Source: Escherichia phage Rac-SA53. Taken from it: a stretch of DNA of 52,291 bases. Where the stretch lies: the sequence record KU052037.1; one strand, given 5' to 3'. A program made the position numbers. Within the stretch, counting starts at the first letter, position 1, and each line of letters opens with the position of its first letter. Below are positions 27,001 through 33,000 of the stretch, one piece after another.

Positions 27001-30000
27001 TTTTCGATTGTTACACCTATGGGTTGATCATCGCGCACGGTAATTACGCGGCGTTGTAAAAAATCAGGATATTTTTGATGGCAGAGATCGAGATTACTGG
27101 CGGCCTCGGTTCAGCACTGATGCGTATTCTTGAGGCTGAAGAAATTCAGCCGGGAACCGATATTGGCTATGAATTGTGTAAGCTGCTGTGGCAATTCCAT
27201 CCTCTGGGCGGAAAACTTGTCGAAAAACCCATACTGATGGCGATGTGTAAGCCGCGACAGTATAACGTGGAGACAGATCCTGACGAGAGGGTTGTGCGGC
27301 GTTTCCAGGAGGTATGGGAACGTATGAGGGTCAACGAGAAGATAAAAAATCTGTTTTTTCTATCTCGTTGCTACGGTGCTGCAGCGATCGGCGTGGGCAC
27401 CGACAGTGTTTCATGTCGTGAGCCGCTTCCGACATTCGGGCTGACAGAAGAGGATGTGTATATCAACGCGTGGGATCCGTTGAACGCTTCCGGTTCGATG
27501 GTGACTGACCAGAACCCAAACAGTCCGTTTTTCCAGGAAGCCAACAAAAGGCTGAAGATTGGCGGAAAAGACTGGCATCCGTCACGCACACTGAAAATCT
27601 TCAACGGCACACCGATTTATCTGGAGTTTCAGAGTTCATCGTTCGGATTCACCGGACGAAGTGTGTTTCAGCGCGTTCTTTATTCCCTGAAATCCTATAT
27701 CAACACGATGGAGGCGAATGATCTCGTTAGTCAGAAAGCGGGCGTACTGGTAGCTAAAGTTGTGCAGAACGGTTCGAAAATGGACGGGATCATGGCTGCT
27801 GCCACGGGGCGTAAAAGGGAAAACGTGAAAGCCGCCAAAAATAAAGGCGTGTTGAGTATTGGAAAAGACGAAGACGTAAGTTCACTGAACCTGCAAAACA
27901 TCGACGGGGCGCTGAATACTGCCCGCGACAATATCATTGCTGATATTGCCGCCGGGAGTGACGTTCCGGCCATTATTATCAAGGAAGAAGCATTCAGTAA
28001 CGGATTCGGTGAAGGTAAGGAGGACTCGAAAGCCATCAGCCAGTATATCGATGGTGTACGCCAGCAGATTGAACCTGTGATGGATTATTTCGAACGCCTG
28101 GTGCAGTACATCGCCTGGAACGAGGAATTTTATCAGTCGCTGAAAAATGATTACCCGGACATCATAACCGAGGACTATAAAACCACGTTTTACCAGTGGC
28201 GGCGCGAGTTGACCGCGACGTGGCAGGAGCTGGTGGAGGAGTCGCCGGACAAACGCCGGGAAAGCGACAGTAAAGTGATTCAACAGGCGATAGCACTTTT
28301 TTCTGCCGTGTCGCCACAGGTTGATCCTGAAAACCGTGCCGCCGTCACTGAATGGCTGGCAAGCCTTGTTAATGCCACGCAAACCTATGGCGAAGCTCCA
28401 CTCATCATTGATGTGGACGCGCTGGCGAATTATGAACCACCGAAGCAGGAGACGCCTGATGGCAATTTCCAGCCGGGCGGTGAGGAAGAAGAAACGGATC
28501 AGGACGCTGTATGAGGTTCTGACGGATGCCGTTAACTACTACGTAAATCACGGGTGGGATAGCGAAAAATCATTGCTCGAATGGTGCCGGAAACTCCGTG
28601 TAGCCGCTCAGCGAGAAACCCCTGATGATACCGTAGCCAGAAAACATCTCACCGCTATCTACAGCCGTCTTGTCATCGACGGCGGGGCATTACGGGATCA
28701 GCCTCCTGAGGGCCCTAAAAAAATCACTGTTGAAAAACTGAAACCTGAGTTTCGTAAGGAACTCGACAGGCGAATTTTCGCCAGTGCCAACCTGATAAAA
28801 CTCAACCGCGAACAGGCTATCGAGAAAACCATACAGCGTTTTCAGGGATGGGTTACGTCCATTCCGCCTGACGGGGTGAGCGAAATTGATCGCCGGGAAG
28901 TGAAGTCCGGTTTTCAGAAGTCCGTGAAGGATATGGATTTTATCAGTCGCCGGGTGGCAATTGACCAGGGACATAAGCTGGCGAGCAACGTTAAGTATCT
29001 GCTGGCTGTTCAGAGTGGTGCGATTGCTCTGCGCTGGCATTCTAACTGGCGGCGTCCGGGCTACAAATACCGACAGGACCACAAAGAGCGCGACGAGAAA
29101 ATTTATCTCCTCCGCAATTCGTGGGCGCTGGAGCAGGGGCTGATTAAGCCCGTATATGGTTTTTATGACGAAATCACTGCTGCCGGGGAGGAGGTTTATT
29201 GCAGTTGCGATGCACTGCCGATCTACGTCCCTCAGAAACTACCCGACGAATTTTTAACGGAGAAGGGCAAACGTGAGTTTAACCGAGCTTGAAGTGGCAG
29301 AACGCATCAGGGACGGAACCGTACCGTCTCCAGTGAAATTCTCCAACATGTGGCTGGTGAATTTGCGAATAACCGGAACCGGGCTTGCCTATCGCGCCGG
29401 GCTGAAAGAGCACGTCTGGCGTGATCCAAAGCTCTATCTGAACGAGGAGTTTTTAAGGCGATGCAATGGCCTTCCGGTTATCGCAAACCATCCTGACGAC
29501 GCAGTTCTGACGGAGGAGGATTTTAAATCGCGGATCGTCGGTAGCGTCATGCTGCCGTATATCCGGGGTGATGAGGTATGGGCGGTGTGCCGCGTTTACC
29601 TCCAGAGCATTGTTGAAGAAATCGCTGAGGGAGATGTTTCGACAAGCCCGTCGGTGGTGTTCAACAGCACATCAGGAAATGTGGAAGTACAGGAAGGTGA
29701 CACCAATTTTTTAATCGAAGGCGTACCTTTCCTTGTTGATCACATCGCCCTGGTGACGAAAGACCACGGCTCGTTGGGCGTGTGGGATAAAGACCGGATC
29801 CCCGCAGGGGTTGAAGTGACAAATACAGGTGAAATTGAGATGGAAAAAGAAGAACTCCAGGCCCTGTTACAGGGGGTGGTGAATGATGCCCTGAGCGGCA
29901 TTAATCAGAAAATCGATGGAGTCGTCACGCGCATGGACTCACTGGAACAGCGGGACAAAGCGCGGGCGGATGCTGAAGAGCTGGCGAAAAAAGAGGCCGA

Positions 30001-33000
30001 AGAAAAGGCCAAAGCTGATGAAGCTGCGGCAAAGGAGGCGGAAGAAAAAGCCAAAGCTGACGAGGCGGCAGCCAAAGACGCTGAGGAGAAAGCAAAGGCT
30101 GATTCCGAAGCGGAAGAACAGCGTAAGGCTGACGAGGAGGCAGAAAAAGAACGCAATGACTCTGCCCTGGCAGAAGCGCAGGCAAAAGCCGACTCCGCAT
30201 TCAGTGCCTGCGGTAAAAACGCGCCAGCACCGTTTTCTGGTGAAAATGCGCTGGACTACCGCAAGCGTGCGCTAATCGCTATGCAGAAACACTCTCCGGC
30301 ACATAAGGACGTCAATATTCGCGCGATTGCGGATTCAGCTACGCTGGCTGTGCTTGAGGACGCAATTTTCAGTGCCGCCCGTCAGTCCATCGAAAAAGAA
30401 ATGATGAGTACGCAGGGGCAACTGCATAAACGTATCCGCAACGATGAAGCCGGGCGTCGCATTACTGAATATCAGGGCGATCCGAACGTCTGGCTGAGTG
30501 CTTTCAAAATTCCGGGGCGTCGTCTGGCAAAAATTAACACTCAAGGGAGCCTGAACAATGGCTGATATTAACTTTCATCCGTTTAAAAACCGTGGAGCAT
30601 TTGGTGGCCTTTTTAACGTCGAATCCCGTGGGCTGATGCAGGGGGATGCGCAGGATGATCCGGCAATTCGTCTGCAACTTTGCTCCGGTCGACTGGACAG
30701 CAAAATCACTGAACCGGTATGGGGTGGCGTTGGAGTTATGGAGTGCATTGCTCCCGCGAAAGACAGCGTTAACGGCGCGGTAATTAAACAAGCCACGAAG
30801 GACGCCTGTAACGCCTTTACTGTCTTTAATCAGGCATTTCATGGCATTACCACGCCGGATAATCCGGTGCCGTTATATCTCGCGGGTGGCTTTGTTCACT
30901 ATTACCGCGTTGGCTCAGGTGCCCGCATTCCTCTCCCTGTCAGTGCAGAAGTTGTTGCGCTGGCTGATGGAAATAACACCGTTGCTGCCAGTGGTTTTGT
31001 GTGGGATCTGACGAAAAACATGGTTGATGTTTATTCGGGATCACCCGGCGCTAATCCGAAAGTGGATATTAAGCTGCTGATGGTTTCAGTTGACGGAAAC
31101 CTGACGGTGAAAAAAGAGGATGGCGGTAACGTTGTCTGGGAAATCGGCAAACCGTGCGGCCTGTTTTTAATTTAAGGGGATATTAATTAATGAGCGCATT
31201 TACTCCTGCGACTACTATTGTGTCGCCGTCAATGGTGCTGCCGGAAATGATCGTGCAACAGAGCATGGCTTCCGGGGCGTTTGAAGTCCTGGCTGGTGGT
31301 GCTCCAGCGGTAAAAATCAGTTCCAGTGATTTGATGGTCTATCAGAAATATCTGCGCATGACCTCGCAGGCGCAGGTCAGCCAGTCTCTGCCGGGTCAGT
31401 TACCGTCTTCCAGTATCTCTGGCGGCTATGACGGAATGATGACTTACCGAATTTCTTCCCGCTCGCAATACAGCTATCTCGATACTGATGCAGCAGATCG
31501 CTGGGGCTATTCTCTGATTGAGGGCCTGCGCCTGGCTAACCGTCAGGGACACGCTCAAATGTTGCGTAATATGCTGCTGTATGGCGTGAATGCAGCTAAT
31601 AACGAGGGGATCACCAACTCACCGAACGCAGTGACGCTGAATCTGGGCAACGACAGCAAAGGTAACGATTCGTACACCACCTGGGATTCCGGCGAGATGG
31701 CTAAATTTATGCTTGGCCTGATTGCTGACCAGAAAACCCGCATGTTGCTGCTGGGGCAGCCATTAACGACTGTTATTCTGAGCCCACAGCGATTCATGAA
31801 GGCTCTGGAGTGGACAGGAATTGTTGAGCTGACCAGTTACCAGCGTCCTGGTGGTGGTACCGGAACGGTGGGAACGATGGTTAAAGACGTCGCCGATAAG
31901 GCGACAGGCGACGACATCATGTTCTGCCAGGACGACACGCTGATCGGTAAAGGCGCTGGTGGTAATGACCTGATCATCGTTACGAACCCGACGATTGAGG
32001 TTCCGGAAGCGCGTCACACCATTAACACCAATATTTTCTCCACGCTGGTACCTAACCAGCAGGCCGTCAACGTGATGTTCTGTGATATGGCAGCGCCGAC
32101 GGAAATCCCGTCCCCTATGCCGGATGGCGGCCTGACCACGTTGTATACCATGCGCGCGACGCCGGGCTGGAACTTCCGCCCTGAGGGGATCACCCTGTTG
32201 TCTGCCAAATACGCATAAACGTTCAATCTGATAACGCGGGGAGCTAAATGCTCCCTTTTTTGTGGGAAAAATTTATGAAGCTCTACATCGCTAACTGCTC
32301 ACGTCAGCCGCACACGTTCAACTACAAACTCCCCGAAAAAACGCAGTCGTTCGGTGTGACAATTCCGTCCGGACGTCAGCATATGATCGAAAATCAGTCC
32401 GATATTATCGACCACATCATCCGACAGCATGAGCCTTACGGATTCCAGCGTTGTGACAAGGTGGACAAGAATTTTTCCGGTATCTGCTATTCCATCGATA
32501 AACCTGTGAGCGTCGGTCGCATTGAGGATTGCGCGGAGCAGAAAACGGAAAATCTGGAATCCCTGTCAGAAGAAATTCTTGCAGCCAGCGCCGTATCGCT
32601 GAATAACGCAGTGGATCAGGCAGTGATTCAAAGTGGCGAAAAACCTCAACCGGGTGGTATTGAAATGGAAATCACCGGGGAAGCGATTAACACTGAACAG
32701 GAAAATCCGCCCAGCACAAAGCGAAATATTAAGGTTAAAAAATAATGACCTTGCGTCCGTCACTGGAGGGATTTATTCGCTTTGTTCGTGACGACATGAA
32801 AGTACCGGTTCACGCTATTGCTGACGATGATCCGACGCTGGAATGTTGCTTTCAGTCTGCGATGGAGCTAATCCCTCACGATCAGGGGCTGGAGCGTTTA
32901 CCCATCATCTATGTGCGAACGGTTTATAACGCTGCCGCCTCATTTCTCCTGAATTTCTCTCCCGGCTCGTGGTTTGCCGACCTGAGAAAAAAACTCAACC

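What the first reader, a model, noticed from the sequence alone, without database searches (positions are those of the whole stretch)
29993..30118. In-frame 42 bp tandem repeats in the scaffold gene
About three units encode EAEEKAKADEAAAK repeats in a coiled-coil region. This is a likely site of length polymorphism or replication slippage, and an assembly risk.
Basis: seen in the sequence. Interest (0 to 1): 0.2.

Follow-up and report, generated by a model that had tools for sequence, protein, structure and literature searches.

The report
Charged repeat in phage protease-scaffold gene
A short in-frame 14-amino-acid repeat sits in the charged helical middle of a prophage gene that encodes a capsid-maturation protease fused to a scaffold; it is real and varies modestly in length between strains, but it is an ordinary feature of this gene family and not an assembly problem.

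Summary
Tandem Repeats Finder reports a 42-bp, 2.7-copy, in-frame array at 29989-30102. It encodes EAEEKAKADEAAAK twice plus a degenerate third unit, far beyond chance. The host gene (29273-30565) is more than a scaffold. Its N-terminal domain has the T4 gp21/herpesvirus capsid-protease fold with invariant His73, Ser125 and His157. It is followed by a charged helical spacer and a C-terminal domain. A conserved internal Met/Val codon (ATG 29840) preceded by a Shine-Dalgarno sequence suggests a nested 241-aa scaffold, as in phages Mu and lambda. This is inferred, not shown. The repeat exists at the protein level only. Units 1 and 2 are 14/14 identical in amino acids, yet their DNA identity (34/42) equals what random codon choice gives, and the longest exact DNA repeat is 11 bp. 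Length polymorphism is real but rare. A 440-aa allele dominates, with minor alleles of 415-447 aa whose indels all lie in the tract and are mostly not whole units. The window allele is a 30-bp deletion between short direct repeats. The tract has no hydrophobic heptad core, so a canonical coiled coil is not supported. Assembly risk is negligible. The result is ordinary and of low interest.

The parts
29273..30565 (+). Host gene: 430-aa capsid-maturation protease fused to a scaffold (RefSeq name 'DUF2213 domain-containing protein'), GTG start
   Evidence: ORF. Pfam DUF2213 E 6.8e-6. PHROG 6216 E 4e-200, plus weak matches to head maturation protease PHROGs. The same CDS boundaries are annotated in RefSeq relatives.
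29273..29767 (+). N-terminal protease domain (aa 1-165). Candidate catalytic residues are His73 (29489-29491), Ser125 (29645-29647) and His157 (29741-29743).
29827..29832 (+). Shine-Dalgarno-like AGGTGA, 7 nt upstream of the internal ATG
   Evidence: Read directly from the sequence. An SD core (AGGT/GGTG/GAGG) is present at -18..-4 in 35/35 distinct related loci, against about 22% per background position, and in two different codon contexts.
29840..30565 (+). Inferred nested in-frame scaffold protein (Met190-Gly430, 241 aa) that contains the repeat
   Evidence: Alignment column 190 is Met in 115/139 and Val in 16/139 homologues, inside an otherwise unconserved linker. Precedent: the Mu-type in-frame scaffold start within the protease gene (PMC4378225). 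No protein product has been demonstrated.
29951..30163 (+). Charged Ala/Glu/Lys-rich tract (aa 227-297) that holds the repeats and all observed length variation
   Evidence: 1 large hydrophobic residue in 71. Residues 241-300 have net charge -11 and 32 opposite-charge pairs at i/i+3,4, against 17.5+-3.1 in shuffles. Predicted helical, but with pLDDT <50 at aa 247-257. All indels among alleles map here.
29993..30034 (+). Repeat unit 1, EAEEKAKADEAAAK
30035..30076 (+). Repeat unit 2, EAEEKAKADEAAAK. It is 14/14 identical to unit 1 in amino acids, with 8 synonymous differences.
30077..30118 (+). Repeat unit 3, degenerate: DAEEKAKADSEAEE (9/14 aa identical to units 1 and 2)
30010..30011 (+). Junction of the 30-bp deletion that separates this 430-aa allele from the dominant 440-aa allele
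   Evidence: In full-length alleles the extra segment AAAGCCGATGAAGC(A/C)GCAGAGGAACAGCGT is followed directly by AAAGCTGATGAAGC. These are direct repeats matching 13/14, spaced 30 bp apart.
30248..30496 (+). C-terminal folded domain (aa 326-408), presumed capsid- or portal-binding end of the scaffold
27075..28514 (+). Context: portal gene
   Evidence: Pfam Phage_portal_3 E 2.4e-14 and PHROG 146 E 6.6e-74
31190..32218 (+). Context: major-capsid-like gene (342 aa, no delta domain). It is preceded by a 205-aa gene at 30558-31175 that overlaps the protease-scaffold stop by 8 nt.
   Evidence: PHROG 6671 E 5.8e-184 and a weak match to major head protein PHROG 264, E 1.6e-8. ORFs.

Best explanation
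The 42-bp array is the DNA footprint of an old, selectively maintained protein repeat, not of a young DNA repeat. It lies in the charged, alanine-rich helical spacer that joins the N-terminal capsid-maturation protease domain to the C-terminal domain of a prophage protease-scaffold gene. The gene probably makes two products. One is the full-length protease-scaffold. The other is a nested 241-aa scaffold started at ATG 29840, which would also carry the repeat.

The spacer is built from iterated short modules, each holding one K/R-x-D-(A/S/E) motif. Because it lacks a hydrophobic seam, it has no heptad register to preserve. In-frame duplications and deletions between short direct repeats (about 10-14 nt) are therefore tolerated and occasionally fix, which gives a dominant 440-aa allele and rare length variants. 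The window carries one such variant: a 30-bp deletion that happens to leave three regularly spaced 14-aa units.

Shown: the repeat, the protease fold and conserved triad candidates, the length alleles, the deletion junction, and the saturation of synonymous sites. Inferred: the nested translation start, the spacer role, and the slippage mechanism.
For: Repeat and significance.

Protein-level origin: units 1 and 2 are 14/14 identical in amino acids, but 8 of 14 codons differ, all synonymously. The observed 34/42 nt identity equals the 34.0+-1.8 expected from the peptide with random codon choice, and the longest exact repeat is 11 bp.

Nested start: Met or Val in 131/139 sequences at column 190; an SD core in 35/35 distinct loci; Mu precedent (PMC4378225).

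No register constraint: 1/71 large hydrophobic residues. Indels among close relatives are -25, -24, -14, -10, -9, -6, -4 and +7 aa. The central segment spans 99-329 aa across 147 distant homologues. Relatives carry arrays of 24-, 27-, 30/33- and 84-bp units in the same place.

Deletion between direct repeats.

Dominance of one allele: a 67-aa tract in nearly all of the 120 closest clusters. Among the 60 best-ranked of 87 E. coli genome records, 43 carry the 1323-bp form and 17 the 1293-bp form.
Against: No protein-level data exist for the nested product. The anti-SD pairing energy at the internal start ranks only around the 10th percentile of the N-domain background in the E. coli-like group, and the 35 loci are phylogenetically related.

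AF2 confidence is below 50 in the middle of the repeats (aa 247-257), so the helical state of the tract itself is not established. It could be flexible or disordered.

A net charge of -11 is atypical for classical neutral ER/K single alpha-helices.

Saturated synonymous sites could also arise from convergent low-complexity evolution rather than one old duplication.

Confidence: 0.7

Rival explanations
1. One reading: the repeat is part of a canonical heptad coiled coil in a scaffold. The 14-aa unit equals two heptads, so copy-number change would alter coiled-coil length while preserving register.
Against: The tract has 1 large hydrophobic residue in 71 and none in aa 241-297. Six of eight indel classes (-25, -24, -10, -9, -6, -4 aa) break the heptad phase yet occur in intact prophage genes. 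Relatives use units of 8, 9, 10 and 11 aa at the same place. pLDDT is below 50 at the centre.
Confidence: 0.12
2. The iterated K/R-x-D-(A/S/E) motif is the functional unit. It would be an array of cleavage sites for the fused protease, as T4 gp21 cuts the gp22 scaffold at many short motifs, or an array of contact points for the capsid interior. The repeat would then exist to multiply that motif. This view is compatible with the main explanation.
For: The motif occurs 8 times in aa 220-308, against 1.0 expected (z 7.7). Across the central segments of 147 homologues it occurs 1097 times against 229 expected (4.8-fold), and 94% of members have z>2. Every repeat unit in every lineage examined holds one K-x-D. 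The protease domain resembles T4 gp21. That T4 gp21 cuts scaffold core proteins at many sites is established knowledge, not tested here.
Against: There are no cleavage data. No matching motif was seen by eye near the N-termini of the major capsid or 205-aa proteins. Enrichment could reflect helix-stabilising charge patterning rather than a recognition site. The motif was defined after looking at the data.
Confidence: 0.15
3. The array is a hypermutable VNTR or contingency locus, or an assembly artefact, whose copy number is unreliable in this window.
For: The array is tandem and in frame, and several length alleles exist.
Against: Units are 62-81% identical at the DNA level, and the longest exact repeat is 11 bp. 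The array is only 114 bp long. The exact 1293-bp gene is found at 100% identity in at least 12 complete genomes of different strains, hosts and chromosome positions, and in an IMG/VR contig. One allele dominates. Only one variant differs by a whole unit.
Confidence: 0.03

Closest known systems
Phage Mu gene I/Z and lambda C/Nu3: a capsid protease gene with an in-frame nested scaffold
   Same: The gene order matches: portal, Mu-F-like head morphogenesis, protease-scaffold, small gene, major capsid. The protein has an N-terminal protease and a C-terminal helical scaffold. There is a conserved internal start codon with an SD about 7 nt upstream. PMC4378225 describes the same features for Mu and Pseudomonas Mu-like phages.
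   Different: The Pfam family differs: DUF2213, with no match here to the Mu or lambda protease families. The portal is of the Phage_portal_3/DUF1073 type. The nested product is only inferred here.
T4 gp21 prohead protease and herpesvirus assemblin (His/Ser/His capsid maturation proteases)
   Different: Sequence identity is only 8-19%. Here the protease is fused to a scaffold region. Catalytic superposition and activity were not tested.
T1-like (Drexlerviridae) prohead protease-scaffold fusion proteins
   Same: [quoted passage not shown]
   Different: No sequence relationship was tested. The CBASS-related role reported there has not been examined for this family.
Charged single alpha-helix (ER/K) domains and designed (EAAAK)n rigid linkers
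   Same: The tract is rich in Glu, Lys and Ala, contains literal EAAAK segments, has dense i/i+3,4 opposite-charge pairs (32 against 17.5 expected) and lacks a hydrophobic seam.
   Different: Net charge is -11 rather than near zero. AF2 confidence is low at the centre. The resemblance rests on sequence pattern and my own knowledge of these motifs, not on a model or an experiment.
TolA domain II (the name given to the homologue in phage vB_Apl-pPE4)
   Same: Both have Ala/Glu/Lys-rich helical low-complexity sequence. The NCBIfam TolA models touch aa 225-326.
   Different: Scores are 22-23 bits against cut-offs of 59 and 213. There is no TolA domain I or III, and the gene sits in a phage head module. 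The name is a compositional artefact.

Membership tests
Capsid maturation protease of the herpesvirus assemblin / T4 gp21 / HK97 gp4 fold | Characteristic protease fold | tested here: met
Capsid maturation protease of the herpesvirus assemblin / T4 gp21 / HK97 gp4 fold | Conserved catalytic Ser and His residues | tested here: inconclusive
   H73 and S125 are invariant and H157 is >=98% conserved across 85-139 homologues, in the His...Ser...His order. Their superposition on known catalytic residues could not be checked without coordinates.
Capsid maturation protease of the herpesvirus assemblin / T4 gp21 / HK97 gp4 fold | Proteolytic processing of scaffold or capsid proteins | not testable with these tools
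   Needs biochemistry or mass spectrometry.
Capsid maturation protease of the herpesvirus assemblin / T4 gp21 / HK97 gp4 fold | Gene located in the head module between the portal and major capsid genes | tested here: met
   TerL 25731-27059, portal 27075-28514, head morphogenesis up to 29292, this gene, then the capsid-like gene at 31190-32218.
Nested protease/scaffold gene pair (Mu I/Z, lambda C/Nu3 type) | In-frame internal start codon with a ribosome-binding site, placed after the protease domain | tested here: met
   ATG at 29840. Met or Val in 131/139 homologues at this column. An SD core 6-8 nt upstream in 35/35 distinct loci, against about 22% background.
Nested protease/scaffold gene pair (Mu I/Z, lambda C/Nu3 type) | Separate shorter polypeptide actually produced | not testable with these tools
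   Needs N-terminal proteomics or initiation profiling.
Canonical heptad coiled coil | Hydrophobic residues at a/d positions with a preserved 7-residue register | tested here: not met
   1 of 71 residues in aa 227-297 is a large hydrophobic. Natural alleles carry indels of 4, 6, 9, 10, 24 and 25 aa. Relatives have 8-11-aa units. The flanking helix at 192-226 does show a 3-4 hydrophobic spacing.
Charged single alpha-helix (ER/K-type) spacer | Glu/Lys(Arg)-rich helix with i/i+4 salt-bridge patterning and no hydrophobic seam | tested here: inconclusive
   Charge-pair pattern is 32 against 17.5+-3.1, and there are no large hydrophobics in 241-297. However, net charge is -11 and pLDDT is below 50 at 247-257.
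VNTR / contingency repeat locus | Near-identical DNA units with frequent whole-unit copy-number change | tested here: not met
   Unit identity is 62-81% and equals the expectation from the peptide sequence. The longest exact repeat is 11 bp. Only one of eight indel classes is a whole unit, and one allele dominates.
TolA | Score above the curated NCBIfam cut-off across the TolA domains | tested here: not met
   22.9 bits against a cut-off of 59.45, and 22.1 against 213. The match is limited to aa 225-326.

The most novel reading that the evidence does not exclude
The repeat units are iterations of a family-wide short motif, K/R-x-D-(A/S/E). This motif may be the recognition or cleavage site of the uncharacterised DUF2213 capsid protease. 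If so, the scaffold spacer would be a tunable array of self-destruct sites, and its turnover in unit type and number between lineages would reflect selection, possibly including escape from bacterial immune sensors that detect scaffold proteins. The evidence shows strong motif enrichment (4.8-fold) and lineage-specific expansions, but nothing about cleavage or immunity.
Probability: 0.15. Interest if true: 0.45.

Novelty: new member of a known kind. Interest (0 to 1): 0.2.

Why it matters
The practical gains are in annotation. Genes labelled 'DUF2213 domain-containing protein', 'TolA protein' or 'NUDIX hydrolase' in hundreds of enterobacterial prophages can be read as capsid-maturation protease-scaffold genes. 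They probably also carry an unannotated nested scaffold. The repeat can be treated as a benign, protein-level feature rather than an assembly hazard. More generally, the tract is a natural example of a length-tolerant charged spacer in a scaffold. The enriched K-x-D motif gives a concrete, testable candidate for the specificity of an uncharacterised protease family. None of this would surprise a phage-assembly specialist.

Tried and rejected
- A first anti-SD test used a 9-nt probe (ACCUCCUUA) and gave uninformative energies, because AGGTGA pairs with the UCACCU part of the 16S tail. It was repeated with the 13-nt tail and an N-domain background.
- A sequence search of the PDB gave only compositional matches to long charged helices (V-ATPase subunit G at E 0.03, and ribosomal bL17). 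I dismissed these.
- The TolA annotation was rejected because it falls below the curated cut-offs.
- The phage collection held only one relative, so allele comparison relied on E. coli genomes, protein clusters and IMG/VR loci.
- ORFs on the opposite strand and in other frames across the tract (29905-30156 on the minus strand, 29925-30200 on the minus strand, 29916-30275 on the plus strand) are read-through of low-complexity sequence. The pattern of 8 synonymous and 0 non-synonymous differences between units 1 and 2 shows selection in the annotated frame.
- One preprint found by the search could not be opened.
- Literature on DUF2213 gave only annotation mentions.
- No tRNA genes are present in the window.
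Full report
**Observation.** Tandem Repeats Finder reports one array in the region, at 29989-30102. It has period 42, 2.7 copies, 79% matches, no indels and score 130, the highest score in the window. 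In the frame of the 430-aa ORF 29273-30565, the units at 29993, 30035 and 30077 read EAEEKAKADEAAAK, EAEEKAKADEAAAK and DAEEKAKADSEAEE. The tract is compositionally biased, so I tested chance explicitly. The longest exact amino-acid repeat is 15 residues, against a maximum of 11 in 3000 residue shuffles. The TRF score of 130 compares with a maximum of 81 in 300 codon shuffles.

**What the gene is.** The ORF lies after the large terminase (25731-27059), the portal (27075-28514) and a Mu-F/SPP1-gp7-like head-morphogenesis gene. It lies before a 205-aa gene and a major-capsid-like gene at 31190-32218. It matches Pfam DUF2213 (aa 46-163) and PHROG 6216, with weak matches to head maturation protease PHROGs.

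A full scan of 1.84 billion representative proteins found 1840 clusters in the family. An 85-sequence alignment at 35-52% identity has invariant R32, R41, R63, H73, T124-S125-P126, E149 and G169-V-W-D172, and D156-H157 is near-invariant.

An AlphaFold2 model built on that alignment has mean pLDDT 86.5. It shows:
- a confident N domain (aa 1-165);
- a weak linker;
- two long helices (192-245 and 261-312), separated by a low-confidence stretch at 246-260;
- a confident C domain (326-408).

**A probable nested scaffold.** In the otherwise unconserved linker after the protease domain, alignment column 190 is Met in 115 and Val in 16 of 139 homologues. An internal ATG or GTG start would look exactly like this when read through. 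In the window this is ATG 29840, preceded by AGGTGA at 29827-29832 with a 7-nt spacer. In 35 of 35 distinct related loci from IMG/VR, an SD core lies at -18..-4 of this codon, against about 22% at background positions. It is encoded in two different codon contexts, T-G-E and P-E-V. The arrangement is documented for phage Mu and Pseudomonas Mu-like phages, which also have a small gene between the protease-scaffold and the major head gene (PMC4378225). I infer a 241-aa nested scaffold (Met190-Gly430) that contains the repeat. No protein evidence exists for it.

**Nature of the repeat.** Units 1 and 2 are 14/14 identical in amino acids but differ at 8 of 14 codons, all synonymously. Their 34/42 nucleotide identity equals the 34.0+-1.8 expected if the same peptide were back-translated with random codon choice from the head genes. 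Units 1-3 and 2-3 are likewise no more similar than expected. The longest exact DNA repeat in the tract is 11 bp. So the DNA periodicity is fully explained by a protein repeat that is old or selectively maintained. It is not a young DNA duplication.

**Is it a coiled coil?** The helix just upstream (aa 192-226) is amphipathic, with 12/35 large hydrophobic residues. The charged tract at aa 227-297 has only 1 in 71, and none in 241-297. The tract is Ala/Glu/Lys-rich, has net charge -11 and has almost twice the i/i+3,4 opposite-charge pairs expected (32 against 17.5+-3.1). It contains literal EAAAK segments. This pattern resembles a charged single helix or a flexible spacer rather than a heptad coiled coil. 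The low pLDDT at 247-257 means its conformation is not settled.

**Length polymorphism.** The gene occurs in 87 of 5426 complete E. coli genomes. Among the 60 best-ranked records, 17 carry the window's 1293-bp form (12 of them at 100% identity, from different strains and hosts) and 43 carry a 1323-bp form. Forms of 1251 and 1248 bp also exist, and one copy is truncated by an IS3 element.

In the wider protein collection the 440-aa form dominates across E. coli, Salmonella, E. albertii and E. marmotae. Rare forms have 426, 431, 434, 436 and 447 aa. Every indel lies inside the tract, and all are in frame. The sizes relative to the 440-aa form are -25, -24, -14, -10, -9, -6, -4 and +7 aa. Only one of these is a whole 14-aa unit, and most are not multiples of seven.

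The window allele lacks 30 bp that in full-length alleles begin AAAGCCGATGAAGC and are followed directly by AAAGCTGATGAAGC. This is a deletion between 13/14-matching direct repeats, with its junction between 30010 and 30011. The closest full-length haplotypes (L013 and L028) share the rare Leu237 variant and differ at only 10 other nucleotides. That points to a deletion in this lineage. The 75-bp deletion in ETEC1738 is similarly bounded by a GCTGACGAGG repeat, by my reading of the alignment.

**Wider family.** Between the protease and C-terminal domains, 147 distant homologues have a segment of 99-329 aa (median 156, window 125) with about 68% E/K/A/D/R/Q. Relatives at about 82-90% identity carry a different array at the same place, EEQRKADEAA(A) in five copies with period 30/33 bp. 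Others have 24- or 27-bp units, and two loci have a 97%-identical 84-bp duplication. Every unit holds one K-x-D. The motif [KR]-x-D-[ASE] is 4.8-fold enriched over shuffles across the family (1097 against 229), and occurs 8 times against 1.0 expected in the window. Repeat turnover in this spacer is thus a general property of the family.

**Interpretation.** The best explanation is a register-free charged spacer in a protease-scaffold. It is built from iterated short modules, and rare in-frame duplications and deletions between short direct repeats are tolerated. What the motif does is open. It could be a cleavage site, a capsid contact or simply helix-stabilising charge patterning. I give the cleavage-array idea about 0.15.

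The VNTR or assembly-artefact reading is rejected. The array is 114 bp of 62-81% identical units, and the same sequence appears in many independent complete genomes.

The 'TolA protein' label on the homologue in phage vB_Apl-pPE4 is a compositional artefact, at 22-23 bits against cut-offs of 59 and 213.

**Verdict.** It is partly wrong on three points: the tract is not a canonical coiled coil, the changes are mostly not whole-unit changes, and there is no meaningful assembly risk. The feature is an ordinary member of a known kind of phage head gene, and interest is low.

Noticed in passing
Distant homologues P0132, P0136, P0131 and P0180 (not in the window): Many family members carry an N-terminal NUDIX hydrolase domain fused to the DUF2213 protease-scaffold. 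Some also have DUF6321 or ribonucleotide-reductase domains. This explains the 'NUDIX hydrolase' names given to the family in UniRef and suggests an enzyme cargo targeted into procapsids. The window protein lacks this domain.
   Followed up: partly
window 27075-28514; homologue in L005: RefSeq names the homologue of this gene 'anti-CBASS protein Acb1 family protein'. Here it matches Pfam Phage_portal_3 and the portal PHROG 146. The Acb1 name looks like annotation spill-over onto a portal protein.
   Followed up: no
L006 (PP818812.1, Actinobacillus phage vB_Apl-pPE4): A phage deposited as infecting Actinobacillus pleuropneumoniae is 95% identical in nucleotides to this E. coli prophage gene, with the same neighbouring gene order. 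The host attribution seems doubtful.
   Followed up: no
L005 (E. coli C7, NZ_CP010240.1): The protease-scaffold gene is truncated after residue 345 by an IS3-family insertion, leaving an annotated pseudogene.
   Followed up: no
window 30558-31175: A 205-aa gene of unknown function (PHROG 6268) overlaps the protease-scaffold stop by 8 nt and sits where Mu-like phages and lambda carry a head decoration gene (PMC4378225). It may encode a decoration or head accessory protein.
   Followed up: no
window 30027-30037: The repeat tract contains strong SD-like strings such as AAGGAGG (from Lys-Glu-Ala codons). These inflate background SD scores inside the gene. No start codon use is implied.
   Followed up: no
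H94, NZ_CP026085.1 'E. coli DH5alpha': A record labelled DH5alpha carries this prophage gene at 95.1% identity to the window, the same as the E. coli W/LY180 group, and has a similar chromosome size. The strain label may be wrong.
   Followed up: no
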